Below are positions 10,358 to 28,462 of a DNA stretch of 64,000 bases, piece by piece (within the stretch, counting starts at the first letter, position 1; every line of letters begins with the position of its first letter). The notes below the pieces were generated by a model that ran no database searches, had not been told where the DNA came from, and worked only from the letters and a program-made list of their open reading frames with translations. Both the position numbers and the translations under genes were made by a program. This stretch comes from Desulfatiglandales bacterium (GTDB lineage Bacteria; Desulfobacterota; DSM-4660; Desulfatiglandales; Desulfatiglandaceae): positions 2,944,001 to 3,008,000 of the forward strand of contig OY762721.1 of assembly GCA_963666345.1 (NCBI GenBank), read 5' to 3'.

Positions 10358-10380
10358 TGTACAGTGGGGATTTACAAAGC

Positions 10381-11184: not shown

Positions 11185-11193
11185 CCCTGGACC

Positions 11194-12666: not shown

Positions 12667-12711
12667 GGCGTTCCATTGACGATTGATGATTGGTGATTGA
12701 GGGCTGAAAAC

Positions 12712-13092
12712 ATGAAAACCAAAGAGCGGACCGTTCTCATTGTAGATGACGAGCCGGATATATTCTGGGTTATGGAACACCTCCTGAAGCAGGAAGGATT
12801 TGTCCTGATCGGGGCCTTGAACGGGCTGGAAACCCTGGTGGTCATGGAAAAAAAACATTTTGAACTGATTTTGCTTGACGCCAAACTGCCTGATATTGAG
12901 GGTTTGGCGCTGGCAAAAAAAATAAGGGAGATGGATTCAACGATTCCCATTGTGCTGATATCCGGATATCTTAGCCGGGATGACGAAATCGTTCAGGACG
13001 CACTCTCCAGCGGATTGATCTCGGAGTATATCTCCAAACCTTTTCAGCACACCGAGATCCTGAATGCAGTGAAAAATCTGTTGCTTTTGTAA
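12712..13092 (+). CDS. Single-domain response regulator (GvrC-like position)
   Basis: IVDDE, LLDAKLPD, ISGY, KPF. Confidence 0.9.
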   Translation: MKTKERTVLIVDDEPDIFWVMEHLLKQEGFVLIGALNGLETLVVMEKKHFELILLDAKLPDIEGLALAKKIREMDSTIPIVLISGYLSRDDEIVQDALSSGLISEYISKPFQHTEILNAVKNLLLL

Positions 13093-13108
13093 ACCCCGGT
13101 CTCTGAAA

Positions 13109-13148
13109 TATGGAATGGATTCCATTTTATAATGGCGCCTGTTCCATA
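13109..13148. promoter_or_regulatory. Putative upstream activator sequences for the gvpA sigma54 promoter
   Basis: TATGGAATGGATTCCATT (13109-13126) and AATGGCGCCTGTTCCATA (13131-13148), 22 bp apart. Confidence 0.65.
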
Positions 13149-13266
13149 GCCCCTATTTCCTGTTTTTTATCCTTTGAGAATCAATTCCCCCGTCCTCCGT
13201 TCAAATTACCCTTGATTTCAGCCGGTTGAAAGGGATTAAAGCTTCCACCACAAATGTACGTGTCTC

Positions 13267-13282
13267 CGGCACGGTTAATGCA
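13267..13282 (+). promoter_or_regulatory. Sigma54 -24/-12 promoter of gvpA operon
   Basis: CGGCACGGTTAATGCA; GG-N10-GC spacing exact. Confidence 0.8.
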
Positions 13283-13354
13283 ATAAATATTGTCTGCATG
13301 CATGCATATGGCAAAATCAGTTTAACCGACAAAAAACCAGAAAGGAGAAACATC

Positions 13355-13573
13355 ATGGCAAAAGTACAAAAATCGACAGATTCCTCGAGCCTGGCAGAGG
13401 TTGTGGACAGAATCCTCGACAAAGGCATTGTAATCGATGCATGGGCCAAGGTATCGCTTGTTGGGATAGAATTGCTGTCTATCGAAGCGCGTGTGGTGAT
13501 CGCTTCAGTGGAAACCTATTTGAAGTATGCCGAAGCCATCGGCCTCACAGCCTCCGCTGCAGCTCCTGCCTGA
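13355..13573 (+). CDS. gvpA: Major gas vesicle structural protein GvpA
   Basis: [71 protein letters not shown]. Confidence 0.98.
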
Positions 13574-13735
13574 AAGATCGGTGTGAAGGCAGCTTAGGCG
13601 GAATGAAACGACCCGCAACCGTTGCCCTTCCCCGTTAAACCCATATGGGCAATCTTTACGCGAGGAGCCGATCCCAAGGCTCCTCACGTTCAGACAACAT
13701 CTGTTTCCATTATAAACCGAGAAAGGAGAAGGACC

Positions 13736-14830
13736 ATGGGGCGATTAACGGAAGATATGACAAATCTGCGTGATGGAATAGACGCCCTCCGCAACGGGCG
13801 GGTGGAATTCATCGCCGGTTTAAAACACGGCATGTCTGAACTCAAGTCCGATGTGGCGGACATGCAGCAAGGTTTCCGCAAAGATTACACCCGGATGGCC
13901 GGAAACATGAAAGACAATTTGAAGGCCTTCATGGCTGAAACAGAAGCATATGTCTCAAACCTGAAAAATGACGTGGTGGACATGCAGGATAATTTCCGCA
14001 GCGATCACGCCGATATGGCCCGTAAGTTGAAAGACGATCTTAGTGGGTTTGCATCCGGGATAACATCCTCCGTGGCCGACCTGATGGATCTCTTCAGTGA
14101 CGACCGTGCCAAGATGGCCGGAAACATGAAAGACAGTTTGAAGGCCTTCATGGCTGAAACAGAAGCATATGTCTCAAACTTGAAAAATGACGTGGCGGAC
14201 ATGCAGGATAATTTCCGCAACGACCACGCCGATATGGCCGGCAAGTTGAAAAAGAATCTTCGGATGTTCGCAGCCGGCATAAAGTCCACCGTGTCCGATC
14301 TGGAAAAGCAATTTCGAGATGAGCATATCGAGATGACCGGCAAGGCCGGGGCTGAACGCCAAATGTTTTTTTCAAACGTGAAACAATCGCTTGCCGACCT
14401 GAAACTGAAAACAACCGATCTTCTTCAGGATATTAGCGATGATCTTGCCGGGGCCCGCAGGGCATGGTCCGGCACAACACCAACACCGTCCAGGAAAAGG
14501 ACTGCCGAAAAGGTCCCCAGGCCTGCCAAAAAACAGGCAGAACCGGAGAAGGTTGCACTTCCGGTCAAAGATCAGGAAGCGCAAGAGAGTACCGAAGATG
14601 TGCCTTTAAAGGTACGCCAACCCGCCAAAGCACAGGCAAAATCGGATGATCTCACACAGATCAATGGAATTGGTCCCGTCATGAGCAGGTGTCTGAACAA
14701 GGCCGGTATTTTTACGTTCGCAAAATTGGCTTCAAGCACCACTGAGGAAATCCGGGGAGCGCTGGGGCAATCGGCAAAGTTTGCCAACTTTGAGAGGTGG
14801 GTCAAGGAGGCCGGGAAATTGAGCAGCTAA
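13736..14830 (+). CDS. GvpC-like helical-repeat protein with C-terminal helix-hairpin-helix domain
   Basis: Position between gvpA and gvpN; 33/40-aa amphipathic repeats; DDLTQINGIGP..L..AGI.TF..LA tail. Confidence 0.7.
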   Translation: MGRLTEDMTNLRDGIDALRNGRVEFIAGLKHGMSELKSDVADMQQGFRKDYTRMAGNMKDNLKAFMAETEAYVSNLKNDVVDMQDNFRSDHADMARKLKDDLSGFASGITSSVADLMDLFSDDRAKMAGNMKDSLKAFMAETEAYVSNLKNDVADMQDNFRNDHADMAGKLKKNLRMFAAGIKSTVSDLEKQFRDEHIEMTGKAGAERQMFFSNVKQSLADLKLKTTDLLQDISDDLAGARRAWSGTTPTPSRKRTAEKVPRPAKKQAEPEKVALPVKDQEAQESTEDVPLKVRQPAKAQAKSDDLTQINGIGPVMSRCLNKAGIFTFAKLASSTTEEIRGALGQSAKFANFERWVKEAGKLSS

Positions 14831-14912
14831 ACAGCGTGTTCGCCTCAGGTCCCGGTCTTTTTTTGTCAAATTCACGATTTTCAAGAAAATTTTCAATGTC
14901 GGGAGAGTTTCA

Positions 14913-15878
14913 ATGAAGACTAAATCTTTGAATCGCACCTCGGAAGCAATCCAGATAATGCCGATGCCAAATGATAACGTTCTGCCCGAGCCCAGCAAGG
15001 AATTCGTCAACACCTCTTACATCCGGGATGTGACGGAGCGTGCCCTTGCTTATCTCAATGTGGGATATCCGGTACACTTTTCCGGCCCGGCAGGCACGGG
15101 AAAAACAACCCTTGCCTTTCATATTGCCGCACAGCTCGGCAGGCCGGTCTCTCTCATTCACGGAGATGACGAGTTCGGAAGCTCCGACCTGATTGGACGG
15201 GATTCGGGATACCGAAAGTATAAACTTTATGACAATTATATCCATTCCGTCATGAAAACCGAGGAGCATTTGAATACACAGTGGGAGGACAACCGGTTGA
15301 CCACGGCATGCAAAAACGGGAATACGCTCATTTACGATGAGTTTACCCGGTCTAGACCGGAGGCCAATAATGCGCTTCTCAGCGTCCTAGAAGAAAAATT
15401 TTTAAATCTGCCAAGGCTTCGAAGGGCCGATAAGGGGTACATGGAAGTGCATCCCGATTTCCGGGCGATCTTTACTTCCAACCCCGAGGAGTATGCAGGG
15501 GTCCACAAAACCCAGGACGCACTGATGGACCGTCTAATCACCATTCATCTGGGCCATTTTGACAGGGAGACGGAGGTGCAGGTTGCAATGGCCAGGTCGG
15601 GTCTGAAACTCAGCGATGCCGAAACCATTGTCGACATCGTGAGAGGGTTGCGAAATACGGGAGTAAATAACAACCGGCCCACCATTCGTGCCAGCATCGC
15701 CATTGTCCGCATCCTGGCAAACCTTGGCGGGCACGCCCGGATGGACGACCCCGTTTTCATCCGCACATGCCGTGACGTCCTGAGCACCAATACGGCCAAG
15801 GTTACCCGCGGGGGCCAGCCACTCATGCCCGAGGTGCTGGAGGAGGTTATGCAGAAGGTCTGCGGAACCCGGACATAA
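14913..15878 (+). CDS. gvpN: Gas vesicle AAA ATPase GvpN
   Basis: GPAGTGKTT, DNYIHSV, YDEFTRSRPEANN, TSNPEEYAGVHKTQDALMDRL. Confidence 0.97.
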   Translation: MKTKSLNRTSEAIQIMPMPNDNVLPEPSKEFVNTSYIRDVTERALAYLNVGYPVHFSGPAGTGKTTLAFHIAAQLGRPVSLIHGDDEFGSSDLIGRDSGYRKYKLYDNYIHSVMKTEEHLNTQWEDNRLTTACKNGNTLIYDEFTRSRPEANNALLSVLEEKFLNLPRLRRADKGYMEVHPDFRAIFTSNPEEYAGVHKTQDALMDRLITIHLGHFDRETEVQVAMARSGLKLSDAETIVDIVRGLRNTGVNNNRPTIRASIAIVRILANLGGHARMDDPVFIRTCRDVLSTNTAKVTRGGQPLMPEVLEEVMQKVCGTRT

Positions 15879-15903
15879 CCGGCCGGAGACCGTTGGCCGC
15901 TCA

Positions 15904-16023
15904 TATTGGCGATTGCAGATTTGTGATTGATGATTTGCGATTGTCGATTGAAGGAATTCTATATTTTATCAAAAAAGAAAGAGCGAAGCGATTCCACAAA
16001 TCAACAATCAACAATCGACAATA
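15904..16023. repeat. Gene-less inverted heptamer element (MITE-like) with GAGCGAAGCG core
   Basis: 7x GATTGNN-like left, 4x NNCAATC-like right, AT-rich centre. Confidence 0.85.
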
Positions 16024-16038
16024 AAAAGGAGCCAAAAG

Positions 16039-16362
16039 ATGCCTTTACCCAAAAAAATCATTCGAGGTTTGGCAAACATCCGCACACGCTCGGGAACCCG
16101 CGACCAGGTATCCGAGCCGTACAAGGCTTTTCTTAGAATCGGATCACTGGAGATGGAGAAAGCCCGGCGGGGCAAGGAAAAGGAAAGCGCAATGAACCGT
16201 GTGCATAATATAGATGACCGTTTCCTGGAAATCGAGGCTGAAAAATCTGAACTTCTAAAGGCAATCGGCATAACGGCCAGCGGCGATGCTTGCGGTAATC
16301 CGGCCAATGGGTCGAAGCGTGAGACGGCCCAAAATAATGGCGGATTCAAAATATCTTACTGA
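16039..16362 (+). CDS. GvpV-like small coiled-coil protein
   Basis: AAGGAG RBS; position directly after gvpN; LEMEKARR coiled coil. Confidence 0.6.
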   Translation: MPLPKKIIRGLANIRTRSGTRDQVSEPYKAFLRIGSLEMEKARRGKEKESAMNRVHNIDDRFLEIEAEKSELLKAIGITASGDACGNPANGSKRETAQNNGGFKISY

Positions 16363-16493
16363 GTATCAGTATGGATTATAGGATTGATGATTGACTATTG
16401 GTGATTGTCGATTGAAAAGCGCCTTAAAAGCTAAAGCATACAATATCCAAACACCAAAAACATTATTTTAAGGGTTATATATGAGGTAAACCG

Positions 16494-16750
16494 ATGCCAA
16501 GGTTGAAGGGGGCGGCCTATATCCACACCAGCCGAACGATCCGAGGTTTTCGGTCCTGTCGGCACTTTACCGGGATATCTCTCACCTACTTTGAGTCCGG
16601 CCGGATCGGATTCGAAAAAGAGAAAATAGCCGTCAGGGAAGCGTTGAACAGAAGACACGGTCAAAGTCACCGTGCAGGTTCTCGTCTGCTGTCCGAGGGT
16701 GTTCCGGTTCATGACAGGAAGACGCTTATTGGAGATAGAAACAAGAAAGG
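16494..16750 (+). pseudogene. Possible degenerate paralog of the GvpV-like gene
   Basis: GAGGT RBS; MPRLKG..RTIRG..RIGFEKEK in one frame and RRLLEIETRK in another echo IIRGL..LEMEK..RFLEIEAEK. Confidence 0.3.
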
Positions 16751-16770
16751 GCAAAGAAAGGGGTCAAGAT

Positions 16771-16956
16771 ATGAAAATCAACTGTCTTTCCTGCGGGCAC
16801 AAAGTAGACCTGGACGATGTTTACGATGATTATCAAGGCCAGATCAGGTGTTTGACCTGCGCCGCGATGCTGGAAATCAAAACCGAGGAAGGTCAACTCA
16901 GATCTGTCATATGGGCTAATGTTCCGCCCTCCCCTTTGGAAGAGAAAACCGCCTGA
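16771..16956 (+). CDS. Small zinc-ribbon protein (CxxC-x18-CxxC)
   Basis: MKINCLSCGH...IRCLTCAAMLEI; AGGGG RBS. Confidence 0.75.
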   Translation: MKINCLSCGHKVDLDDVYDDYQGQIRCLTCAAMLEIKTEEGQLRSVIWANVPPSPLEEKTA

Positions 16957-17007
16957 GGGCGCTTTGACAATTACCCGCAAACGTAAGAAAAGGATTGGGA
17001 AAGCAAA

Positions 17008-17772
17008 ATGGCTGCGCAATCTCCGGATCATAAAGGAAGATACTTATACGCCGTAATCGCCGGGGCCGGCGGGCAAAACCTGGAAACACAGGGAATTGAC
17101 AACGGCGCCCTCTATACCATTTCTGAAGGGAAAATCTCGGCTGTTGTCAGCGATGTCCCCAACAAAAAGCTGCGACCGGAACGGAGACACCTGGCGGCCC
17201 ACCAGGGTGTGCTTCGGCGGTTGATGGAAGAGGGCACGCCGCTCCCCATGACATTCGGTATCATTGCGGACGGTTCCCGGGCAATCAGGCGGATACTGAC
17301 CCTAAACGAAAAAGCTTTTCAGGAAGCGCTTGACCATGTCAACGGGAAAGTGGAAATGGGACTGCGGGTCACCTGGGATGTACCGAATATATTCGATTAT
17401 TTTATCAACACCCATCCGGAACTCAGAGCGGTACGAGATCGGTATTTCGGCACCAATCTGGAACCGGCGCACGCGGATAAGTTAGCGCTGGGGCGTATGT
17501 TCGACAACCTGTTGAATGAAGAAAGGGAGATCCACACCGAAAAGGTAGAAGAGATTCTTGCCGGTGTCTGCTTCGAGATCAACCGAAACCCATGCCGAAG
17601 CGAACTGGAAGTCATGAGCCTGGCCTGCCTTGTGGGACGGGATAAGGCGAAACAAAAAGCGTTTGAAAAAGGCATTTTGGAAGCAGCCAATCCGTTCGAC
17701 AACAATTATGCCTTCGATTACAACGGCCCCTGGGCTCCCCATAATTTCGTGGATATAGAGCTTAAGTTATGA
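17008..17772 (+). CDS. gvpF: Gas vesicle protein GvpF (GvpL/F family)
   Basis: GRYLYAVI, AHQGVL, LPMTFG, GKVEMGLRVTW, GPWAPHNFV; precedes gvpG. Confidence 0.9.
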   Translation: MAAQSPDHKGRYLYAVIAGAGGQNLETQGIDNGALYTISEGKISAVVSDVPNKKLRPERRHLAAHQGVLRRLMEEGTPLPMTFGIIADGSRAIRRILTLNEKAFQEALDHVNGKVEMGLRVTWDVPNIFDYFINTHPELRAVRDRYFGTNLEPAHADKLALGRMFDNLLNEEREIHTEKVEEILAGVCFEINRNPCRSELEVMSLACLVGRDKAKQKAFEKGILEAANPFDNNYAFDYNGPWAPHNFVDIELKL

Positions 17773-17792
17773 ATGAAGAGAAAACAATTTTT

Positions 17793-17933
17793 GATTGGCG
17801 ATTGGCGATTGGCGATTGACGATTTAAGGAAGTCGCTTCGCTCCATTATTATTTTTATAAATATAGAGCGATATTCCTCAATTTTTCAAACGGTGTTATT
17901 CAATCAACAATCGCCAATCAACAATCAACAATG
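17793..17933. repeat. Gene-less inverted heptamer element abutting the gvpG start codon
   Basis: GATTGGC x3 GATTGAC GATTTAA + GTCGCTTCGCTC ... TTCAATC AACAATC GCCAATC AACAATC AACAATG. Confidence 0.88.
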
Positions 17934-18212
17934 CTTATAGTCGATGACATACTGTTTTTTCCGATGCGTAGTATCCTCTGGATATTTCGCGAACTGCACA
18001 ACTCCGTCCGGCAGGAGATGGAAAACGAGGCCGAGTCCATCACGGCGGAACTGAGCGATCTTTATATGATGTTAGAGACGGAAAGAATAACGGAAGACGA
18101 GTTCGACGCCCGTGAAAAACAGCTCCTTGACCGGCTGGAAATGATACAGGAGCGCAATACCGGTATCGAAGATGATGAAGAAGACCCTGATCCGGATAAA
18201 CCGGGAGAGTGA
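17931..18212 (+). CDS. gvpG: Gas vesicle protein GvpG
   Basis: MLIVDDILFFP..WIFREL...ITEDEFDAREKQLLDRL. Confidence 0.92.
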   Translation: MLIVDDILFFPMRSILWIFRELHNSVRQEMENEAESITAELSDLYMMLETERITEDEFDAREKQLLDRLEMIQERNTGIEDDEEDPDPDKPGE

Positions 18213-18322
18213 CAACTGATCAGTAACCGGCCTCCGGCCCAGAGGGACCTACGCCCCGGAGGATGATCAGTGAAAAAAGATCGGTGACCGATAACCTATG
18301 ACTGATATCCGGTACCAGATTA
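18209..18322. repeat. Gene-less GTGANCN-type heptamer element containing a 32-bp GC-rich hairpin
   Basis: GTGACAA CTGATCA GTAACCG [CCTCCGG...CCGGAGG 18231-18262] ATGATCA GTGAAAA ... CGGTGAC CGATAAC CTATGAC. Confidence 0.65.
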
Positions 18323-18334
18323 AAGGGCTAAATA

Positions 18335-20422
18335 GTGACGGGAGAGCAACCGGAAGGATGTCAAAGTTTGAACACAGAACCACACAAGGACTCACCTCTT
18401 TTCCTTCGCAACAGCCATTTGCGAATCCTTTTTTTCGGCGGCAAAGGCGGTGTCGGCAAGACAACGTGCGCTACGGCCACGGTGCTCAGACTGGCCAAGC
18501 GCACCGCGGAAGCCTCCTTTCTCTTAGTCTCGACAGATCCGGCCCATTCTCTGGCCGATAGCCTGGCCGACACCACCCTTCCTTGCAATTTAAACGTTAT
18601 CGAACTCGACGCAGGAAAATCCCTAACCGCTTTCAAGAAAAACCACACCCGGAAACTCAGGGAGATTGCATCCCGCGGAACTTTCTTTGACGGAGAAGAT
18701 ATCAATGAGATCCTGGACCTCTCCCTGCCGGGCATGGACGAGCTGATGGCCTTTCTCGAGATCGCGGGGTGGGTGGAAAATGAGACGTATGACTGCATTG
18801 TGGTGGATACCGCTCCAACGGGACACACTCTCAGACTGCTGGCCATGCCGGCGTTGATCAAAAGGTGGCTTGATGCGCTGGATGCGCTGTTAGCCAAGCA
18901 TCGTTATATGAAGAAGCTGTTCAGCGGTTCTTATCGGCCTGATGATCTGGATAAATTCCTGTCCGGGATGGCCGGTTCGGTCAAACAGATGGAGGCGCTG
19001 CTGCAGGATCCGGAACGATGCTGTTTTGTTCCCGTTATGCTTGCCGAAGCCTTGAGCGTCACAGAGACCTCGAGGCTGTTGGAGGGATTGAAACAATCAA
19101 AGATACCGGTCACCGATATCGTGGTGAACAGGCTTTACCCGGAAAGTATTTGTATGGTTTGTTCGGACCGGCACATCCGACAGATGGGAGAGCTCGGTCA
19201 ACTTGAAAAGAAAATATCCGCTTATTCCCTATGGGGAATTCAACAATACCCGGAAGAAATTCGCGGTCCGGCTCCTCTCGAGGTATTCTGGGATGGACTT
19301 GTTGCATTGAACAATCAACCCCGGTTGAATATTCTAAAGATTCAACGGGGCAAGCAATCAGCAATCCATGGCCCAGACCTGGCCGGCCCAGATCCTGCGG
19401 TCAAGGGAAGTACATGGAGAACCAACAGAAGTAAAAGCATGCTCAGAGCATGTCGCGCCAGGGCGGGCATCAATCGCCAATCAACAATCGCCAATCAACA
19501 ATCCAAACCGCCTGTTCCTGAAAAGAGGCTCCTGGTTTTTGCCGGAAAGGGGGGAGTTGGAAAGACCACCCTGGCCTGTGCCACGGCAGTCAGGATGGCC
19601 CGGACATTTCCGGATAAGGGGGTTTTTCTATTCTCTACGGATCCGGCCCATTCCCTGTCGGACTGTCTAAGGAAACGGATCGGACCGGAGCCGACAGAGC
19701 TTATTCCCGGACTGACAGCCATGGAGATCGACGCACAGGCAGAGTTCGATGGCTTGAAAAAAAAGTATGCGGCAGAACTGGAGAGGTTTCTTGTCGCCCT
19801 CTCGCCCGATCTTGATCTGACATTTGATCGCGAAGTGATGGAACGCGTCATGGATCTCTCTCCCCCCGGCCTGGATGAAGTGATGGCCCTCACCCTAGCC
19901 ATGGGTTTTCTCGCCGAGGATCAATACCAGGTCTTCGTGCTCGATTCGGCCCCGACTGGGCACCTGATCCGGCTTTTGGAAACCCCGGAGCTCATTCAGC
20001 AGTGGCTCAAGATGTTTTTCAACCTTTTTCTGAAGTATAAGCGCGTTTTTCGGCTTCCCGGGGTCTCGGAGCAAATGATCCGGATATCAAAAGATCTCAA
20101 ACGCCTGCTTGCCCTGTTAAAGGATTTCGACCGGTCGGCGCTATATGCGGTGACCATACTGACGGAGATGGCATTTCAGGAGACAGCGGACCTGGTGGCT
20201 GCCTGCCTGCGAATGGGGATAAATGTGCCGACGCTTTTTCTCAATCTTGCCACACCGGTCAGTGAGTGCCCTCTTTGCTCGGCCCTTTACCGGAACGAGG
20301 AGCAGATCAGAAAAAAGTTTGAGCGAACCTTTCCCGGAAAGTCCCAGGTCCTGGTCCATTACATGGGGGAAACGCGGGGCATGCAGCGAATCGAGGCGCT
20401 GGGAGATGAGATTTATGATTGA
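18335..20422 (+). CDS. ArsA/GET3-family tandem ATPase of the gas vesicle cluster
   Basis: Two GKGGVGKTT / STDPAHSL / D(T/S)APTGH modules; no ars genes nearby. Confidence 0.93.
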   Translation: MTGEQPEGCQSLNTEPHKDSPLFLRNSHLRILFFGGKGGVGKTTCATATVLRLAKRTAEASFLLVSTDPAHSLADSLADTTLPCNLNVIELDAGKSLTAFKKNHTRKLREIASRGTFFDGEDINEILDLSLPGMDELMAFLEIAGWVENETYDCIVVDTAPTGHTLRLLAMPALIKRWLDALDALLAKHRYMKKLFSGSYRPDDLDKFLSGMAGSVKQMEALLQDPERCCFVPVMLAEALSVTETSRLLEGLKQSKIPVTDIVVNRLYPESICMVCSDRHIRQMGELGQLEKKISAYSLWGIQQYPEEIRGPAPLEVFWDGLVALNNQPRLNILKIQRGKQSAIHGPDLAGPDPAVKGSTWRTNRSKSMLRACRARAGINRQSTIANQQSKPPVPEKRLLVFAGKGGVGKTTLACATAVRMARTFPDKGVFLFSTDPAHSLSDCLRKRIGPEPTELIPGLTAMEIDAQAEFDGLKKKYAAELERFLVALSPDLDLTFDREVMERVMDLSPPGLDEVMALTLAMGFLAEDQYQVFVLDSAPTGHLIRLLETPELIQQWLKMFFNLFLKYKRVFRLPGVSEQMIRISKDLKRLLALLKDFDRSALYAVTILTEMAFQETADLVAACLRMGINVPTLFLNLATPVSECPLCSALYRNEEQIRKKFERTFPGKSQVLVHYMGETRGMQRIEALGDEIYD
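19369..19470 (+). repeat. 102-bp constant-end element, copy 1 (in-frame in ArsA linker)
   Basis: Ends TGGCCCAGACCTGGC / GTCGCGCCAGGGCGGGCAT match reverse complement of 27962-28063. Confidence 0.85.
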
Positions 20423-20441
20423 TGATTGGAGGAAATAAATT

Positions 20442-20705
20442 ATGGCTGATTTTTCCATCGAGGAAACGGAACATATCTCTCTTTGCGAGACCCTGGATCG
20501 CATTCTCAACAAAGGCGCCGTTATTTTCGGTGAAGTGGTGATTTCCGTTGCCAATGTGGATTTGATCTACATTGCCTTGCAGGTGCTGGTTGGTTCAGTC
20601 GAAACGGTGCGGGGGGAAATGCCGATAAGTGGTTCTAATCCTCCTCCCATAAGACTTGGGATCAGGGCAGACAATGTCGGCAAATTAGAGATTGGCGATT
20701 GTTGA
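20442..20705 (+). CDS. GvpA/GvpJ-family minor gas vesicle protein
   Basis: SLCETLDRILNKGAVIFGEVVISVANVDLIYI. Confidence 0.9.
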   Translation: MADFSIEETEHISLCETLDRILNKGAVIFGEVVISVANVDLIYIALQVLVGSVETVRGEMPISGSNPPPIRLGIRADNVGKLEIGDC

Positions 20706-20788
20706 TTGGCGATTTACGATTGAATCCGGTTTTGAGTTTTTCAATCAACAATCCAGAAGTCATCAATCCAAAGGAGGACGTTGGTAAA

Positions 20789-21184
20789 ATGATCAATCAT
20801 CAATCATCAATCATCAATCATCAATCAAAAAAGGTTGAATCCGAAACCCTCAGCGATTTTGCCAGAGTCATGGGTAAGGACACCGTGCAGGCTCAATCGC
20901 ATTGCGAAGTGAACGACCGTCGCGCCCGGATCGAACTTGATCCGGAAAAGGCAAAAAACGGGCTCGGTCAACTGGTGCTCACCCTAATGAAAGTCATTCA
21001 CGAACTCCTGGAACTTCAGGCGATCCGTCGAATCGACGCGGGGTCACTCATGGATGAAGAGGTTGAAAACATCGGGATGACTTTGATGAAGCAGGCCGAG
21101 GAGATTGACAGGCTCAGAAAAGAGTTCAACCTGGAGGAGGATGATCTCAATATTGACTTGGGGCCACTGGGGAAACTCTTATAA
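20789..21184 (+). CDS. gvpK: Gas vesicle protein GvpK (repeat-derived N-terminus; start uncertain)
   Basis: GLGQLVLTL..ELLELQAIRR..G.L..EEVE..G..LM...DLNIDLGPLGKLL. Confidence 0.93.
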   Translation: MINHQSSIINHQSKKVESETLSDFARVMGKDTVQAQSHCEVNDRRARIELDPEKAKNGLGQLVLTLMKVIHELLELQAIRRIDAGSLMDEEVENIGMTLMKQAEEIDRLRKEFNLEEDDLNIDLGPLGKLL

Positions 21185-21636
21185 TTGTTGATTGACGATT
21201 GTTGATTGATGATTGAAAGAAACAAATCTTATTTAAGAGGAGGATATGGAGTTAGATCCTGAAGAATTGAAAAAAAGGACAAAAGATTTCGCTCATAGGT
21301 GTGTAAAGCTTGCTATTTCATTGCCACGAACCACACTGGGAAAGCACATTGAATCTCAGTTAATCAGGTGTTCGACATCTGTAGCATCAAATTATCGAGC
21401 CAGTATTCATGCCCAGTCAAAAGCTGCATTTATAGCGAAAATAAGTATTGTAATTGAAGAATCAGACGAATCTGAGCTTTGGTTGGAATTCGTGATGGAT
21501 GAAAAGCTAATGGAAAGAAAGAAGGTTTTGCCGCTTTTCAATGAAGCACATGAACTATCTTCCATTTTTATAACCACAAGAAGGACAGCTCAGAAAAAGA
21601 AAAAAATCAACAATCATAAATCATAAATCAACAATC
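21183..21636. mobile_element. Four-helix-bundle cassette 2 bracketed by inverted heptamer arrays
   Basis: Left AATTGTT GATTGAC GATTGTT GATTGAT GATTGAA (21183-21217); right AAAAATC AACAATC ATAAATC ATAAATC AACAATC (21602-21636); mobility is inferred. Confidence 0.6.
21246..21626 (+). CDS. Four helix bundle protein (23S rRNA IVP family, second subfamily)
   Basis: LKKRTKDFA..QLIRCSTSVASNYRA..AQSKAAFIAKISIVIEESDESELWLE. Confidence 0.92.
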   Translation: MELDPEELKKRTKDFAHRCVKLAISLPRTTLGKHIESQLIRCSTSVASNYRASIHAQSKAAFIAKISIVIEESDESELWLEFVMDEKLMERKKVLPLFNEAHELSSIFITTRRTAQKKKKINNHKS

Positions 21637-21654
21637 AAAACCGGAGGTTTTCAT

Positions 21655-21984
21655 ATGGCCATTCAACGTGCAGCACAGCATTCCATCGCGAGCACCAACC
21701 TTGCCGATTTGCTCGAACGTATTTTGGACAAGGGGATCGTGATAGCGGGGGATATCAAGATCAGCCTGGTCGACGTCGAACTGCTGACCATCCAGCTTCG
21801 CCTGGTCATATGTTCCGTGGATAAGGCCAGGGAGATGGGCATGGACTGGTGGGTAAATAACCCCTGCTTCACCCGGGGGGCAAAAAATGATCAAGTCGTT
21901 GATTCCCTTGAAAGGATCGAGAAAAGACTCGAAAGACTGGAATCTTCCCCTTTGAAAGAATCCGGAAGTGATTCAGCACCTTAA
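21655..21984 (+). CDS. gvpJ: Gas vesicle protein GvpJ-like
   Basis: [51 protein letters not shown]. Confidence 0.9.
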   Translation: MAIQRAAQHSIASTNLADLLERILDKGIVIAGDIKISLVDVELLTIQLRLVICSVDKAREMGMDWWVNNPCFTRGAKNDQVVDSLERIEKRLERLESSPLKESGSDSAP

Positions 21985-22072
21985 GCCCGCGGTTTCCATT
22001 TGCGAAATTAAGCGTTGGATACATGGTTTTCGCCCGCAAGGGCAAAGCGACTGAAGACGAGGAGGTCGAATT

Positions 22073-22321
22073 ATGGGTCGGATTACTGACGTTTTGAATT
22101 ATCGACTGAAGAATAAAGGGTTTGAGCCAGTTGCGATCCCCAGGTTTATAAAGGATGTGGTCCATGCCGTTTCCGTTAATCACCAAATCGGACTGACGGA
22201 GATGAATAGACGATTGTGCCTGTTAGGCTGGGACCCCATCGAATTGGATCACCACACGCTGCAATTGATCATCGCGAGCAATGAAAAGGATTCGGTCCTC
22301 CCGGAGAGAATGTTGACTTAA
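22073..22321 (+). CDS. Small hypothetical protein
   Basis: GAGGAGG RBS, 82 aa, IPRFIKDV / LGWD motif. Confidence 0.6.
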   Translation: MGRITDVLNYRLKNKGFEPVAIPRFIKDVVHAVSVNHQIGLTEMNRRLCLLGWDPIELDHHTLQLIIASNEKDSVLPERMLT

Positions 22322-23255
22322 TATTGGTCCGGTATTCATTGTGATGAAGAAAAAGAGGTATTATGGCGGCAGTCATCAAACACTATTTGAATCCTTTGCA
22401 TATCTATTGCCGGTTGAGGAACATAGGAATCCGAAAAACCATGGCAATATCACCCTGCCGTTGTTATGAGCGGGTCCTTTTCAAGCGTTTTTTAAAATAG
22501 AAAAGGGGAGAGGAAGGGAAGATTTCCAGGTGATGTGAAGGCCGGATCCTTAAGAGGAAGATCAAGACGGAGATGACATATCCGAAAAGGGAGCTTGAAA
22601 AACAAAAAAGTATGGAAGGTGTGGCATAATTATCAACGCACCGGTACGGTATGGGTATTTTTGGACAAGAAAGGTATTAGGAATGGCTGAAAAACCTGCC
22701 TATGAAGAATTGAAGCAAAGGCTTAAGGAGTTAGAGAAAACAGCCCTTAGGTGCAAGCGGGCAGAGGAGGACGAAAAGGATAAGCTGCAGGCGCAGTTGG
22801 TAAACGCCTTGGAAATGGCCCATTTAGGCCGATGGGAATATGATGTCGCCAATGACCTCTTCACGTTCAATGACCATTTCTACAAAATATTTCGCACCAC
22901 AGCCAAGCAAATCGGCGGGTATACGATGTCATCGGCTGAATACGCCCGTCGCTTTGTCCATCCTGACAATATGACTGTTGTCGAAGAAGAAAATCGAAAG
23001 GCGATTGAAGCAACCGATCCCAACTTTAGCCGGCAACTGGAACACCGCATACTTTATGACGACGGTACCATAGGACATATTTCCGTTCGGTTTTTCATCG
23101 TCAAGGACGCCCAAGGCCTTACAGTCAGTACCTATGGAGTGAATCAGGATATCACAGACCGCAAGAGGATGGAGGAGGCGTTGCGGAAGAGCGAGGAACA
23201 CTACCGCAGCATTTTCGAGGATTCGAGAGATGCAGTCTATATTACCACTCGAGAT

Positions 23256-24531
23256 CAATACTGTCCGGTTAACAAATGTCTAATTTAAGCTGAGCTGAAC
23301 AGCTACCCTTATTTGAAATAGCAGGTGGCGGTTCAAATAGCTCCCTTAAGGAACAACTCCTAAAAAGATTGAGTTGCAGAATCCTAAGAAGATTCTGCAG
23401 GCTGACTTTAATGCGAAATAATAATTTCAGGTAACACAGTAGAAGATACGCGATTAATGCAACATAAATCTGTGAGAGGACCGCGTTTTTAGAATTGCCT
23501 ATGAAAGCCTTGATTTTAAGGTTCTGTTTGATCCAGCGGAAGAATATCTCTATTTTCCATCGCTCTTTGTAGATATCGGCAATTGTTTTTGCAGCCAGCT
23601 TGAAGTTATTGGTAATAAATACATAGTGATGTCCCGTTTGGGGGTCACGATAGCCTATCCTCCTTAATTGATAAGGGCACTGTTGTATTCCTTTTACACC
23701 GTTAAGCAAGATGGTCTGATCTGATGTCAAGCCCTGCTTTTTTTTAATCTCACGGCGTTCAGTGACCCTGTAAACGGCATTACGCTTTTGTCTTGTGACA
23801 AAAAACAGGTTGTTTTTCTCAAGGGATGCAAACCAGCTGTAATCGGTGTAAGCCCGATCAGCAACCACAATGGAGCCTTTGGGCAATCTAAGACATCGAG
23901 CGATCTCTATCTCATGTGTTTTAGCCTCTGAGATGGAGACAAAACTGGGTAGATAGCCATCATGATCCAACACGGTGTGCAGCTTAATGCCCGCCTTGGT
24001 CCTTCTGAAGGATGCCCAGGGAAATACACTGAGGCATAGATCGATCACAGAGGCATCCATACTGTAGAGTTTGTTTTTAAACTTAAATTTATGCTTAGGG
24101 GCGATACCGGAGCATTTACGATACATACGGTAAAATAAAGCCTCATAGAAAGAGGCTGGGCGGTTGTTGTTGGCATCGGAAAAGGTTGAGCGGGCAACGG
24201 GCGTGGCTCCCAGGTGATAAAGGCTGCTGGATCTGGCCTTTAAGCTTTGGATACCGTCTCTGAGGCTTACTCTGGAGGTCAGTTGCATAAACATCAGATG
24301 GACGAACTGATTCCATCGGCTAAAGGAGCGGGGTTTTCTGCCTGTGCCGTGCTGATTTTCAAGGGTTGAAAAAACATGTCTTGGTATAATTTTAAGCATA
24401 GAATTAAAAAGTGTGGTATGATGAGCCATAGTCCGGATTCTCCTTTCTGTTTAGTGTGTTATGGCTAACATCATTATAACAGATTACGCGGAGAGTTCGG
24501 ACTTTTTTTATCCCTTAACCGGACACTATTG
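23256..24531 (-). mobile_element. IS4-family insertion sequence, 1276 bp
   Basis: 17-bp IRs CAATA(C/G)TGTCCGGTTAA (16/17), 9-bp TSD ACTCGAGAT at 23247-23255 and 24532-24540. Confidence 0.96.
23269..24429 (-). CDS. IS4-family DDE transposase
   Basis: MDASVI, VADRAY, YKERWKIEIFFRWIKQNL (YREK motif). Confidence 0.96.
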   Translation of the reverse strand: MAHHTTLFNSMLKIIPRHVFSTLENQHGTGRKPRSFSRWNQFVHLMFMQLTSRVSLRDGIQSLKARSSSLYHLGATPVARSTFSDANNNRPASFYEALFYRMYRKCSGIAPKHKFKFKNKLYSMDASVIDLCLSVFPWASFRRTKAGIKLHTVLDHDGYLPSFVSISEAKTHEIEIARCLRLPKGSIVVADRAYTDYSWFASLEKNNLFFVTRQKRNAVYRVTERREIKKKQGLTSDQTILLNGVKGIQQCPYQLRRIGYRDPQTGHHYVFITNNFKLAAKTIADIYKERWKIEIFFRWIKQNLKIKAFIGNSKNAVLSQIYVALIAYLLLCYLKLLFRIKVSLQNLLRILQLNLFRSCSLRELFEPPPAISNKGSCSAQLKLDIC

Positions 24532-26269
24532 ACTCGAGATGGTAAGTTTATTGACGCAAACCAATCTGCACTTGATCTCTTTGGCTATAGTAGAGAAGAG
24601 ATGGCATCGGTGAATGCCCTTCAACTATATATGCATCCTGTTGATGCAAGCAGGTTTCAGAAGGAGATAGAGGAAAAGGGATTTTTGAGCGACTATGAAG
24701 TAACGTTCCGTAAGAAAGATGGTACGGAGATAAACAGTTTGTTTAGTACGACTCTCCGACGAGCAAATGATGGAAGCATTCTGGCATACCAGGGCATTAT
24801 ACGTGATATGACTGAGCACAAGAAACTTGAAGCCCAGTTCATCCAGTCCCAGAAGCTGGAGGCCATAGGCAATCTGACAGGGGGGATTGCCCACGACTTC
24901 AACAATCTCTTGACCGCCATCATCGGAAATGCCGATCTGGCGATCGGAGATGCGGGGAAGGATTCGCCCCTCTATGAGTTATTAGAAGAGATCAGGGAGG
25001 CAGGGGCAAGGGCGGCAGGGCTCACCAGGCAGCTCCTGGCCTTCAGCCGGAAGCAGGCCCTTCAACCCGAAGTGGTGAACCTCAATGAGGCGCTGGGTAA
25101 TATGGACAGGATGCTGCGGCGTCTCATCCGGGAGGATATTGAAGTGGAAACCCTCTTGAGGCCTGATTTGGGACGGGTCGAGGCGGACGTCGGGCAGTTG
25201 GAGCAGATCCTCATGAACCTGGCGGTCAATGCCGGAGATGCCATGCCCGATGGAGGAAAGCTGACTGTTGAGACAGGTAACGTGGATCTGGATGAAGGTT
25301 ATGCCCGGAACCACATCGCCGTGATGCCGGGTCCTTATGTGATGTTAGCCGTGAGCGACACGGGCATCGGAATGACGAAGGAGGTACAGGATCGTCTCTT
25401 TGAGCCCTTTTTCACCACCAAGGAGAAGGGGAAAGGAACGGGTCTGGGGCTCTCCACCGTGTACGGGATCGTCAAGCAGAGTAAAGGCAACATCTGGGTC
25501 TACAGTGAGCCGGGCAAAGGGAGCACCTTCAAAATCTACCTCCCCAGGATAGAAGAGACGGTTTGTATCATTGGGAAAGCAGAGAAAAAGGGAGTATCCC
25601 TTCAGGGTTCGGAAACCATCCTGGTGGTTGAAGATGACGACATGGTCAGGAATTTGGCACTCAAGGCCCTGAAGCAGTACGGGTACAAGGTCCTGTGCGC
25701 CGGGGACGGTCAGGATGCCTTTCATGTGTGCCGGGAACACAAGGAACCGGTTCACTTGATGTTGACAGACGTGGTCATGCCGGGGATGGGCGGCATAGAA
25801 CTGGCGAAGAGTCTGGAAAAACTGCGGCCTGAGATAAAGGTCCTTTTCATGTCGGGCTACACTGACAGTGCTATCTCTCACCATGGGATTTTAGCGCCAC
25901 ATGTTAATTTTATTGAAAAACCTTTTTTACCGGAGACTCTTGCAGGCAAAGTGCGCAAAGTTCTTGATGCCGGTCGGAGCGGAGCGTAGATCCCGCTGAA
26001 AGCGGGGATGAGGCCAAAGCTACCGACCCATGATTAATTATCCTTATTTGTAAGTTTTTTAGGTTCTTGTTTTTATTCGATAAATGACGACTATCTTCGC
26101 TGCATCCTCTATCGAATACAGTATTCGATAGTTTCCGACACGAATGCGATAATCATCTTTTTCGGTGAGCTTTTTAGAAGATTGAGGTCTATGGTTGACG
26201 GGCAGAGCGAGATTTTTTTGTCGATCGCAATGCGATCTTTCGGGGGATTGGGAGAAGAGGGGGAAGAGA

Positions 26270-27962
26270 ATGGATGCGAAGGAATTAAAAGCGAAGGAAA
26301 ATCAGGGAGATTTTGAACTCAGGCAAGGAGCCGAGGAAAAACTGAAAGAAGCGTCCAGACGTAGCGAAGATCTCTCCGGAGTGTCGCCCGAAAAAATGGC
26401 ACATCTCATCCACGACCTTCAGGTTCATCAGATTGAGTTGGAAATGCAGAACGATGAACTCCGGCGTATCCAGGGTGAACTTGAGAGGACGCGGGACAGG
26501 TATTCTGATCTGTATGACTTTTCGCCGGTCGGGCATTTTACAATGAGTGAAACGGAGATTATCGAAGAGGCCAATCTCACTATCTCTTCCATGTTAGGCA
26601 TAGAACGCAGCGCCTTGATCGGAAAATCCTTTACCCGTTTTGTTCTGAGAGAAGACCAGGACATTTTCTATAAACAACGGCAGCGCCTTCTGGAAACAGA
26701 GACACCCCGGTCCTGCGAGATACGTCTTGTAAGAAATGAAGGTCATGAGTTTCATGCCCGTATTGAATGCATGGTCATAAAAAACAGGGGTGGCGATCTA
26801 AGGCAGATCAGGGCGGCGGTCAGCGATATCTCCGACGTCAAGAGAATGGAAGAGGAGCTTTTAAGGTCCCAAAAACTTGAATCGGTAGGGTTGCTTGCAG
26901 GGGGCATCGCCCATGATTTCAACAATATCCTGACAGCGATTATAGGTAATGTTTCCATGGCCAAGATGCAGGTGAGGCCGGAGGATGAGATGTTTGACCT
27001 GTTAAGTGGCGCAGAGACTGACCGGACAGTTGGTGACCTTTGCCAGAGGGGGAGCGCCGGTAAAGGAGACCGCTTCAATCAAAGATGTTATCAGGGAATC
27101 ATCCCTCCTTGTTTTGCGAGGTTCAAAAACCAGGTGCGATTTTTCCTTAGCTGAAGACCTCTGGCCGGCTGAGGTTGACGTCGGGCAGATGAGCCAGGGC
27201 ATCAATAATATTGTTTTCAATGCAGACCGGGCCATGCCGGAAGGGGGAATCATTCAGGTTGCTGCAGAAAATCTAATAATAGGTGACGGACATGGGGTGC
27301 CCCTCAGGCCGGGCAGATACATCAAAATATCCATCACGGATCATGGGGTTGGCATAGCCGAAAAATATCTTTCAAAGGTATTTGATCCTTATTTTACGAC
27401 AAAGCAGGAAGGGAACGGTCTCGGGCTTGCCATGACCTATTCCATCATCAGGAAACACGATGGGCACATCACGGTGGAATCCCAGTTGGGGGTTGGGACC
27501 GCATTTCACATCTATTTGCCTGCTTCCGATAAAGCAGTCCCAGAAAAAGAGGAAGTTAAGATAATAAAAGGCCAAGGCAGGATTCTGGTGATGGATGATG
27601 AAGCGTCGTTACGGAAAATGGTCGGGAGGATGCTGAAAAACCTTGGCTATGAGTCAGAATTTGCAAAGGACGGTGCTGAAACGATTGAGATGTACAAGGA
27701 AGCCAAAGAAGCTGAAAAGCCTTATGATGCCGTCATTCTGGATTTGACCATTCCCGGCGGAATGGGCGGCAAAGAAGCGATTAACAAATTACTTGAGATT
27801 GATCCTGAAGTAAAAGCTATTGTCTCAAGCGGATACTCCGATGACTCGGTCTTGGCGAATCTCCAGGAATATGGTTTTAAAGGTACGATGCCCAAACCAT
27901 TTGAATCCCGATCACTGAGCAAAGTGTTACATGAAGTGCTCGAGGGGAAAGGGAAGTATTGA
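26270..27962 (+). pseudogene. PAS-HK-REC hybrid kinase with frameshift near 27011-27017
   Basis: H-box in one frame, AQRLTGQLVTF onward in another; several HisKA residues missing at the junction. Confidence 0.85.
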
Positions 27963-28063
27963 TGCCTGCCCTGGCGCGACTCCGCCGAAATTTGTTTGTT
28001 TCGTGATAAGTATTTAGAATTAGAGTCCCGGACGTCACGTTCATTAAAGCCAGGTCTGGGCCA
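27962..28063 (-). repeat. 102-bp constant-end element, copy 2
   Basis: Same ends and length as 19369-19470 in opposite orientation, followed by GATTGGT GATTGAG heptamers. Confidence 0.85.
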
Positions 28064-28462
28064 GGGATTGGTGATTGAGAAGAATTGAACCCTGGAGAAC
28101 TGAAAGAGCGAAAAGATGGGAAAATTTGTCAGACGGAGAATTCATTATTCTGAAATTCAAGGATCATTATCCGAAATAAGATTTAAGAATACCTTAACTA
28201 TACTGAATTTTTAGCAAAGTCATACTTATGCAAGCAATGTTAAAACTATCACACTTTTGAACATTATCAATCCCTTTGACATCCGCAATATATCCAGTCA
28301 TAAAAAAATTACGCTGATGATCGGGGAGAATTAACCACGCTTTTCGCCCCGAATATATTGTGGGATTGCAGGAGATGGTCACGTGAGAGAATGAGATAAT
28401 CGCCTTTTGAAACCTTCTGCGACTTGTGACAGCAAAATACCGCTATTTTGAAAGGAGAAATC

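What the first reader, a model, noticed from the sequence alone, without database searches (positions are those of the whole stretch)
19369..19470. 102-bp element with constant ends and a variable 68-bp core, inserted into heptamer arrays
Seen: 19369-19470 (+) and 27962-28063 (-) are both exactly 102 bp. They share a 15/15 left end (TGGCCCAGACCTGGC) and an 18/19 right end (GTCGCGCCAGGGCRGGCAT), but the 68-bp interiors show no similarity I can detect. Both are preceded by NNCAATC NNCAATC and followed by CAAT. Copy 1 adds 34 in-frame codons to the ArsA inter-domain linker; copy 2 overlaps a kinase stop codon. Inference: fixed length with constant ends and variable cargo resembles a spacer/guide cassette or a length-constrained hairpin element that targets the arrays.
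Basis: seen in the sequence. Interest (0 to 1): 0.85.

Follow-up and report, generated by a model that had tools for sequence, protein, structure and literature searches.

The report
Length-locked 100-bp mobile element family
The two 102-base stretches are copies of a small selfish DNA element, scattered through sediment bacteria of the Desulfobacter group, that keeps its ends and its length fixed while its middle drifts, and one copy has landed in frame inside a working gene.

Summary
Both stretches are 102 bp, with the stated constant ends, and their middles match at only 17 of 68 places.

They belong to a large family.
- The element proper is 100 bp (T...GGC).
- CCC stands before it in 147-149 of 150 copies, and there is no target duplication.
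- It occurs in 8 of 41 related genomes and in over 123 stretches worldwide, mostly Desulfobacter-group MAGs.
- In a scan that allowed gaps of 1-400, 103 of 112 matches are 95-104 bp, with the mode at 100.

The middles are not cargo. They fall into 86 BLAST clusters but share a weak common profile in register (c1 z=3.7, c2 z=4.2; 0 of 5000 shuffles each). They are old, diverged homologues.

Empty sites show insertion. An 87-89% identical ArsA orthologue has the same hairpin and heptamer linker but lacks the 34 codons.

Nothing supports an RNA structure, an Rfam family, or a phage, plasmid or self match. I found no transposase partner.

Verdict: an apparently undescribed MITE-like element with an unusually strict length and an unknown mobilising enzyme. 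The guide-cassette reading is not supported.

The parts
19369..19468 (+). Copy 1 of the element proper (100 bp, T...GGC), in frame in the ArsA inter-domain linker.
   Evidence: It is absent from the orthologous ArsA of G009 and from a related contig of run X6.
19369..19379 (+). Constant left end of copy 1 (11 invariant bases; bases 12-15 are only semi-conserved in the family).
19452..19468 (+). Constant right end of copy 1 (17 bases).
19366..19368 (+). Three bases before the left end. Here they are CCA, one of the rare exceptions to the family's CCC.
   Evidence: (CCC in 147-149 of 150).
19319..19350 (+). 32-base perfect hairpin that precedes the heptamer array. Together with the array it encodes the ArsA linker. 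It is also present in G009 and at two other places in the genome.
19351..19368 (+). Heptamer units (NNCAATC type) upstream of copy 1.
19471..19503 (+). Heptamer array downstream of copy 1 (period 7/14).
   Evidence: (TRF rows 19471-19503 and 19478-19503).
18335..20422 (+). Host gene of copy 1: a two-domain ArsA-type ATPase of 695 aa, open across the insertion.
27964..28063 (-). Copy 2 of the element proper (100 bp), between the kinase gene and kaiC.
   Evidence: A paralogous locus at genome position 1604299-1604552 lacks it. An identical copy exists in G005.
28064..28081 (-). NNCAATC units and the CCC directly upstream of copy 2 (read on the minus strand).
27006..27962 (+). Hybrid histidine kinase / receiver gene. 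Its stop codon ends one base before the element proper.

Best explanation
Both stretches are copies of a non-coding, non-autonomous mobile DNA element of about 100 bp.

Anatomy. It has an 11-base left end and a 17-base right end that are kept almost invariant, most likely as protein recognition sites. The AT-rich core of about 70 bp is free to drift in sequence but not in length.

Insertion. It enters DNA in one orientation directly after CCC (commonly AAYCCC), usually before a pyrimidine, and does not duplicate the target. NNCAATC-type and CCTTGA-type short-repeat arrays offer such sites, which is why the copies in this window sit in arrays.

Shown: discreteness, the conserved ends, the CCC flank, the lack of duplication, the length lock, presence/absence at orthologous and paralogous sites, and wide spread in Desulfobacter-group genomes.

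Inferred:
- It is moved in trans by a sequence-specific enzyme that joins without a staggered cut (a non-DDE type of recombinase or transposase). That enzyme is not yet identified.
- The length lock reflects a need to bring the two ends together in one complex.

Copy 1 is tolerated in ArsA because it fell in an unconstrained linker and the frame is open. Nothing indicates that it serves the host.
For: Discrete unit with empty sites.
- The c3-type copies sit inside one copy each of another abundant repeat whose other copies are uninterrupted at that point.
- ArsA of G009 (87-89% aa identity) has the same hairpin and heptamer linker but lacks the element, a difference of 34 codons.
- A related contig of run X6 has 64 letters where the window has 193 (record 20).

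Constant ends and flank.
- Among 152 unique copies, CCC stands upstream in 147-149 of 150, and +1 is a pyrimidine in 134 of 151.

No target duplication.
- The best register gives 2.87 of 8 identical bases, against 2.38 for permuted pairs. Only 3 of 139 copies reach 7 of 8.
- 20 of 20 copies of a recently amplified lineage in G044 show no direct repeat.

Length lock.
- 22 of 35 matches in relatives have the same span, range 90-97.
- With a gap of 1-400 allowed, 103 of 112 matches are 95-104 bp, 45 of them exactly 100. The rest are 4 of 61 bp, 1 of 74 bp and 4 tandem doublets.

Core is drifting homologous sequence.
- It splits into 86 BLAST clusters, but a weak shared consensus exists.
- Register-only profile scores: c1 z=3.66, c2 z=4.22, with 0 of 5000 shuffles each. 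For the deep core: z=2.9 (13 of 5000) and z=3.3 (2 of 5000).

No RNA-type constraint.
- Left-end bases 12-15 vary without compensation in the right end; paired cells equal the number expected under independence.
- RNAalifold finds 4 invariant pairs and a covariation term of 0.01.
- There is no Rfam match at E up to 10.
Against: - No autonomous partner was found. There are no long left-to-right pairs up to 10 kb in the own genome. All 19 apparently unpaired left ends examined in G041 belong to short or truncated copies.
- The tool's gap limit of 500 kept me from looking for kb-sized elements in other genomes.
- The candidate enzymes I checked do not fit: the IS200 copies have unrelated ends, the 320-340 aa Y1-domain genes are not flanked by the element, and IS110-type genes are absent from copy-rich G023 and have unrelated flanks.
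- There is no recent activity in this genome. The closest pair, c3/c4, shares 58 of 68 core bases.
- Several lineages (c3/c4 here, 20 copies in G044) lie inside larger composite repeats, so part of the copy number comes from hitch-hiking.
- Transposition itself has not been observed.
- The terminal inverted repeat is weak (5+6 bases around a small indel; read).
Confidence: 0.6

Rival explanations
1. It is an ordinary MITE of a DDE transposase. Short inverted ends are cut and pasted by an IS-encoded enzyme, and the target duplication has been lost through age or is hidden in the repeat arrays.
For: - The ends form an imperfect inverted repeat (read).
- Same-element flanks are slightly more alike than permuted ones in one register (z=6.3).
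- Three examples have 7 of 8 or better matching flanks, for instance the L004 copy.
- The family is old enough for decay.
Against: - The mean flank identity is only 2.87 of 8.
- A recently amplified lineage (20 copies in G044) has no duplication.
- Insertion is strictly orientation-specific relative to an asymmetric flank, which cut-and-paste DDE elements usually are not.
- No IS with these ends was found.
- The excess flank similarity is what local tandem arrays would give.
Confidence: 0.12
2. The element is not mobile by itself. The constant ends are host protein-binding or architectural sites at a fixed spacing, and copies spread by hitch-hiking in larger repeats, duplication and gene conversion.
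For: - Copies in G044, and c3/c4 here, are embedded in larger repeated units.
- No partner enzyme was found.
- A fixed spacing of two sites is typical of protein-bound DNA.
Against: - Clean presence/absence of exactly the element occurs inside otherwise colinear sequence, including a coding linker.
- The CCC flank is invariant in dozens of unrelated contexts.
- Copies lie in ORFs, at gene ends and in intergenic DNA in both orientations.
- Flanking genes share no common function.
Confidence: 0.13
3. One reading: a guide or spacer cassette, or a small structured RNA gene family. The constant ends would be handles for a protein and the variable core would specify a target.
For: - Constant ends, a core that looks unrelated pairwise and a fixed length resemble a repeat-spacer unit.
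- Some core lineages are conserved between genera and families.
Against: - The cores share a common position-specific profile and so descend from one sequence.
- There is no second match of the c1 or c2 core in the genome. Phage and plasmid collections give nothing above chance; the best E-values are 0.8-0.9.
- There is no conserved structure or covariation and no Rfam family.
- No promoter-like site lies in either copy.
- Copy 1 lies inside an ORF, and copies occur in both orientations relative to genes.
- There is no recurrent neighbouring gene.
- The ends are not direct repeats.
Confidence: 0.04

Closest known systems
Prokaryotic MITEs such as Correia/NEMIS, Chunjie and QMITE (review PMC10969869; I read passages only)
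   Same: Small, non-coding, multi-copy and dispersed, with conserved ends and less conserved cores. They can sit inside genes and operons.
   Different: - The review describes flanking direct repeats and sizes that vary widely within a family (39-400 bp for QMITE1, 178-235 bp for Chunjie).
- This family has no duplication, only a weak inverted repeat, orientation-specific insertion after CCC, a length spread of a few bases across many genera, and no known parent IS.
Rickettsia palindromic elements (RPE), as described in the passages of PMC10969869
   Same: Elements of about 100-150 bp that are found inserted in frame in protein-coding genes and translated as part of the product, like copy 1 in ArsA.
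   Different: - RPEs are palindromic, and in-frame insertion is their rule.
- Here the element is not palindromic.
- Copy 1 is the only in-ORF copy that I documented. The others I looked at lie at gene ends, in other repeats or between genes.
REP sequences and REPINs moved by RAYT tyrosine transposases (title and abstract of PMC3733652 seen in the listing; the REPIN spacing rule is recalled, not read)
   Same: Short elements with two conserved terminal parts at a preferred spacing and no target duplication, dependent on a single-copy host-like enzyme.
   Different: - The ends here are not G+C-rich hairpins.
- The whole unit does not fold into a hairpin.
- The GTAG or CGTC tag named in that paper's title is not at the ends.
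- The Y1-domain genes of carriers are not flanked by the element.
IS200/IS605-derived miniature elements (palindrome-associated elements; recalled knowledge, no paper read)
   Same: Asymmetric ends, no duplication, and obligatory short target sequence directly 5' of the left end.
   Different: - The canonical 100-bp form has no subterminal hairpins.
- The IS200 copies of this genome have unrelated ends.
- No clean strand bias along two complete chromosomes is visible by eye in the coordinates.
Cyanobacterial small dispersed repeats and minitransposons embedded in heptamer arrays (Elhai and co-workers 2008; recalled, and not retrieved because one search failed)
   Same: A setting of tandem heptamers, small mobile units and tiny hairpin units nested precisely inside them. 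Here 30-bp, 16-bp and 22-bp hairpins are nested inside the element's ends.
   Different: Different phylum, different sequences, and the unit here is about 100 bp and not 21-27 bp. I found no evidence for an RNA intermediate.

Membership tests
MITE (canonical) | Small size (<500 bp), no coding capacity, many dispersed copies | tested here: met
   The element is 100 bp. c3-type copies carry stops in all six frames (read).
MITE (canonical) | Terminal inverted repeats | tested here: inconclusive
   The ends share 5+6 complementary bases around a 1-base offset. Left bases 12-15 vary with no compensating change.
MITE (canonical) | Target site duplication flanking the element | tested here: not met
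   3 of 139 copies reach 7 of 8 or better; 0 of 20 recent copies have a duplication; the empty sites have no extra repeat.
MITE (canonical) | Parent IS with the same ends | tested here: not met
   In genomes other than G000, the search for elements longer than 500 bp was not possible.
REP / REPIN | G+C-rich palindromic units forming a hairpin, with RAYT genes flanked by them | tested here: not met
   Folds show z-scores of -0.2 to -1.95. One search finds no consensus structure. One search shows no element ends beside the six 320-340 aa Y1-domain genes examined in carriers, nor beside the two in G000.
IS200/IS605-type miniature element | No duplication and a fixed short target 5' of the left end | tested here: met
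IS200/IS605-type miniature element | Subterminal hairpins at both ends, and a Y1 transposase with matching ends | tested here: not met
   There are no hairpins within the 11-base and 17-base ends (read). Hairpins occur only as nested extras in a minority of copies. The IS200 ends are unrelated.
CRISPR-like or guide cassette | Direct repeats flanking captured spacers that match foreign or self DNA | tested here: not met
   The ends are not direct repeats. The cores are homologous. No matches were found.
Integron attC site | Conserved core sites at both ends and an imperfect hairpin of the whole site | tested here: not met
   There is no hairpin of the whole unit. The core-site motif is recalled and not seen in the ends. 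I did not search for an integrase.
Any Rfam RNA family | Covariance-model match | tested here: not met
   no hit overlaps either copy at E up to 10 in window 18500-29000.

The most novel reading that the evidence does not exclude
This would be a transposase-orphan, length-gauged mobile element moved by a mechanism not yet described for miniature elements: a dedicated host-like recombinase, or a single-strand or template-directed process that measures about 100 bases between two short recognition sites and joins after CCC without duplication. It would come with its own layer of hyperparasites, namely tiny hairpin units that insert at one exact position inside its right end and at another exact position inside its left end, in different genomes.
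Probability: 0.25. Interest if true: 0.75.

Novelty: new variant of a known kind. Interest (0 to 1): 0.5.

Why it matters
If the reading holds, Desulfobacter-group sediment bacteria carry a widespread miniature element, which my literature searches did not find described, that breaks the usual MITE rules in four ways.
- It makes no target duplication.
- It inserts in one orientation after a three-base signal.
- It keeps a length fixed to within a few bases across many genera while its core drifts almost to randomness.
- It has no visible parent element.

That combination points to an unidentified enzyme that gauges length, which would be worth finding as a DNA-insertion activity.

It also has practical uses. 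It explains odd in-frame linkers, such as the 34 extra codons in ArsA, and many contig breaks in MAGs of this group.

For the host gene itself the finding is ordinary: a tolerated insertion in a linker.

Tried and rejected
- Rfam scan of 18500-29000 at E up to 10: nothing on the copies.
- nhmmer leave-out test on the short cores: uninformative, and the script then failed on a missing id. I replaced it with register-only profile scoring.
- Autonomous partner. There are no left-to-right pairs up to 10 kb in G000. Of the 19 apparently unpaired left ends in G041, all belong to short copies with variant or interrupted right ends, apart from one truncated before a cobalamin-riboswitch-like leader (my reading), one probable chance hit and one masked.
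- IS200 ends, Y1-domain 320-340 aa genes and IS110-type genes: no link to the element.
- Recurrent neighbouring genes in 185 loci: none occurs in more than 3 loci.
- Phage and plasmid BLAST of both copies: no match, or chance-level matches at E 0.8-0.9.
- Promoter and terminator scans. There is no promoter-like site in either copy. One weak terminator-like stem lies in each copy, at about the chance rate.
- Helical (10-11 bp) periodicity of the core as a sign of bent DNA: not significant. Only a roughly 20-bp wave in AT content appears, which shared descent can explain.
- Heptamer arrays as the general target: 6 of 90 against 1 of 90 controls, so not general.
- Reads. Only assembled contigs were available, and no RNA run held a useful share. 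Nothing can be said about transcription, splicing or excision circles. Parts of the stretch without cover are not evidence.
- Literature. 'Miniature inverted-repeat transposable' plus 'Desulfobacter' gave 1 paper, on integrons, seen as a listing only. The search for small dispersed repeats, heptameric repeats and cyanobacteria did not list the 2008 paper. One search failed on term length.
Full report
THE OBSERVATION. Searches show the two stretches exactly as described. They are 19369-19470 on the plus strand (c1) and 27962-28063 on the minus strand (c2). Each is 102 bp, preceded by two NNCAATC units and followed by CAAT. The 15-base left end occurs twice in the 64-kb window and nowhere else even with 2 mismatches allowed (expected 0.10). 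The 19-base right end occurs twice with up to 3 mismatches allowed (expected 0.01). In register, the two 68-bp interiors agree at 17 of 68 places, which is chance level.

The host of c1 is a 695-aa ORF with two ArsA ATPase domains (PF02374, E 1.7e-114). c1 lies between the domains and the frame stays open. c2 follows a HATPase_c plus receiver gene and precedes kaiC.

TRUE BOUNDARIES AND FLANKS. I collected 152 unique copies from this genome, its relatives and a world-wide scan. The unit proper therefore runs from T to GGC and is 100 bp in c1 and c2.

The three bases before the unit are C in 148, 149 and 147 of 150 copies. A preference for AAY precedes them, and the base after the unit is a pyrimidine in 134 of 151. 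c1, with CCA, is one of the rare exceptions. By this boundary c2 stops one base short of the kinase stop codon.

There is no target duplication. In the best register, upstream and downstream flanks share 2.87 of 8 bases, against 2.38 for permuted pairs. Only 3 of 139 copies reach 7 of 8. The 20 copies of a recently amplified lineage in G044 show none.

THE FAMILY. The window's own genome is 4.16 Mb in one contig, at 48% G+C. Its copies are:
- Two degenerate copies.
- A tandem pair at 1607365-1607611, in which each right end is interrupted by a 30-bp hairpin.
- A c2-like copy at 1618822 that has lost its right end.

Among 41 relatives, 8 genomes hold 35 matches. Of these, 22 have the same span as c1 and c2, and the range is 90-97. 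The 80 listed records are nearly all MAGs labelled Desulfobacteraceae, Desulfobacterales, Desulfatiglandales, Desulfosarcina or Deltaproteobacteria. A few are labelled otherwise: Gammaproteobacteria, Bacteroidales, Pseudomonadota and Syntrophobacter. Three predicted viral contigs of 2.9 million hold four copies.

LENGTH. Within the biased collection, lengths are 100 (46), 99 (43), 98 (16), 101 (15) and a few others. The unbiased test allowed any gap from 1 to 400 between the ends in five genomes. It gave 112 matches:
- 103 lie at 95-104 bp, 45 of them at exactly 100.
- 4 are a 61-bp deletion form.
- 1 is that form with a duplicated left end.
- 4 span two tandem copies.

An order-wide search for gaps of 105-500 hit 24 of 209 genomes. 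Judging by the lengths and the first 80 letters shown, these are tandem doublets, copies with the 13-base left end repeated two to four times, and copies with a roughly 22-bp hairpin nested just inside the left end. The length is therefore not literally fixed, but it is held within a few bases across many genera. That is unlike the size spread that a recent review gives for bacterial MITEs (PMC10969869, passages).

THE CORE IS NOT CARGO. BLAST groups the 152 cores into 86 clusters, 59 of them singletons. Printed side by side, however, many cores share motifs at fixed positions. A global alignment of 139 copies gives a weak consensus of 0.3-0.7 bits per position.

An alignment-free test used only the 46 copies of exactly 100 bp, left out everything at least 45% identical to the query, and scored the query core against the position-specific composition of the rest:
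- c1: z=3.66. c2: z=4.22. In each case 0 of 5000 shuffles reached the real score.
- On the deep core alone (positions 19-77): z=2.9 (13 of 5000) and z=3.3 (2 of 5000).

The cores are 62% A+T. So they are descendants of one sequence that have diverged almost to saturation by substitution while indels were purged. Lineages are shared between genera and even families, for example the c1-like copies in G023 and the 1607365-like copy in G031.

EVIDENCE FOR INSERTION. There are four lines:
1. c3 and c4 lie inside copies of another abundant repeat. At the same point, six other copies run on without the 100 bp and without any footprint.
2. ArsA of G009 is 87% and 89% identical over the two domains. 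Its linker is encoded by the same 32-base hairpin and the same kind of heptamer array but lacks the element. The query-to-subject gap differs by 34 codons. Within the linker, the two genes are even read in different frames for a stretch because of a 7-base difference. This shows that only openness of the frame matters there.
3. A contig of a related organism in run X6 has 64 letters where the window has 193 (record 20). Runs X4 and X5 hold contigs identical to the window across both copies (records 2, 10 and 16).
4. A paralogous kinase 3' region at 1604299-1604552 lacks c2.

WHAT IT IS NOT.
- Structured RNA. There is no Rfam match. Folds of single copies are unremarkable, with z from -0.2 to -1.95. 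RNAalifold on 77 representatives finds four invariant pairs and no covariation. The apparent pairing of left bases 10-15 with the right end is not maintained: bases 12-15 vary while their partners do not, and paired cells equal the number expected under independence.
- Captured spacers. There are no matches of the c1 or c2 core elsewhere in the genome, and none in phage or plasmid collections above chance.
- Promoters. No promoter-like site lies in either copy.
- Array-specific targeting. Only 6 of 90 copies with long flanks sit in strong period-7 sequence, against 1 of 90 controls.

THE MISSING ENZYME. I found no longer element with these ends.
- The six-copy IS200 of this genome has unrelated ends.
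- The 320-340 aa Y1-domain genes common in this order are not flanked by the element, and the Y1 family is present in 33 of 41 genomes whether or not they are carriers.
- IS110-type genes are missing from copy-rich G023 (83% complete) and have unrelated surroundings elsewhere.
- No gene recurs next to the element.
- Gaps over 500 could not be searched in other genomes, so a parent element elsewhere is not excluded.

MECHANISM (INFERENCE). Four features point to a sequence-specific enzyme that joins without a staggered cut: an invariant short flank on one side only, strict orientation, no duplication, and asymmetric ends that are conserved as sequence and not as structure. That is the style of single-strand (HUH) or site-specific recombinase systems, and not of DDE cut-and-paste.

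The length lock suggests that both ends must be held in one complex at a set distance. I could not find helical phasing to support a bent-DNA version of this idea. I put 0.6 on 'non-autonomous mobile element moved in trans by such an enzyme'. I put 0.12 on a classical MITE with lost duplications, 0.13 on a passively spread protein-binding module, and 0.04 on the RNA or guide idea.

COMPARISON AND NOVELTY. The element works like a MITE but fails the defining test of a target duplication and has no parent IS. It shares the fixed 5' target and the lack of duplication with IS200/IS605-type miniature elements but lacks their end hairpins. It resembles REPINs in having two conserved parts at a set spacing but does not fold. 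Like Rickettsia palindromic elements, it can be carried in frame inside a protein.

The setting recalls what was reported for Nostoc in 2008 (recalled, not re-read): heptamer arrays, a small mobile unit, and still smaller hairpins nested at exact positions inside it. My literature searches found no description of this family. The scan's own notes hold nothing like it.

I class it as a new variant of a known kind, of moderate interest. For ArsA and the kinase themselves it is a tolerated passenger.

LIMITS. Most relatives are fragmented MAGs, and repeats often end contigs. Copies within lineages are not independent. No raw reads or RNA data were available. The supplements of the papers were not consulted.

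Noticed in passing
G000 genome 1607443-1607493 and 1607565-1607611 (outside the window); L175, L178-L180, L183, L187, L189, L191 in G041: A 30-bp G+C-rich hairpin is inserted at one exact position inside the element's right end. In G000 both of its copies lie there and nowhere else. In G041 it sits in 8 of the 19 copies examined, which belong to different core lineages. It looks like a tiny unit specialised on this element.
   Followed up: partly
L033, L039, L040, L047-L050 (G023); matches in G049, G054, G055, G070, G071: Other small hairpins are nested at fixed points. In G023 a roughly 16-bp unit, itself sometimes carrying a further nested unit, sits at the same right-end position. In other genomes a roughly 22-bp hairpin sits directly after the 11-base left end.
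   Followed up: no
matches (for example G061, G062, G068-G070); window 19384-19398: The 13-base left end is often repeated in tandem, two to four times. c1 itself carries a degenerate second copy of the left end right after the first.
   Followed up: no
window 9000-22000: This is a gas-vesicle gene cluster: GvpA-type protein at 13226-13573, AAA_5 GvpN-like at 14913-15878, GvpL/F at 17008-17772, further small gvp-like ORFs, and ArsA within it. Nearly every intergenic gap holds NNCAATC or GATTGNN heptamer arrays.
   Followed up: partly
window 19319-19350; genome 1604363 and 1618765: A 32-base perfect hairpin followed by heptamers recurs three times in the genome. In ArsA it is translated as part of the linker. 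G000 and G009 read part of this linker in different frames.
   Followed up: partly
window 23255-24532: An IS4-type insertion sequence (DDE_Tnp_1 plus DUF4372, 386 aa, 18-bp inverted ends) appears to split a PAS histidine-kinase gene (ORFs 22683-23288 and 24529-25989).
   Followed up: partly
genome 1160900-1161400 and dozens of other places: An abundant repeat of a few hundred bp ends in CCTTGA-type short repeats and hosts the c3 and c4 copies. It has tens of copies in the genome.
   Followed up: no
window 9921-10328 and 21246-21626: Two genes for 23S rRNA-intervening-sequence-type four-helix proteins lie inside the gas-vesicle cluster (the second was confirmed by Pfam; the first is judged by eye only).
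   Followed up: no
window 27972-27987 (+): Read on the plus strand, the right end of c2 forms a weak terminator-like stem with a T-rich tail about 10 bases after the kinase stop codon. It is at about the chance rate for the scan.
   Followed up: no
L255-L258: Four copies of the element lie on three contigs of the viral collection, two of them on one 6.5-kb contig.
   Followed up: no
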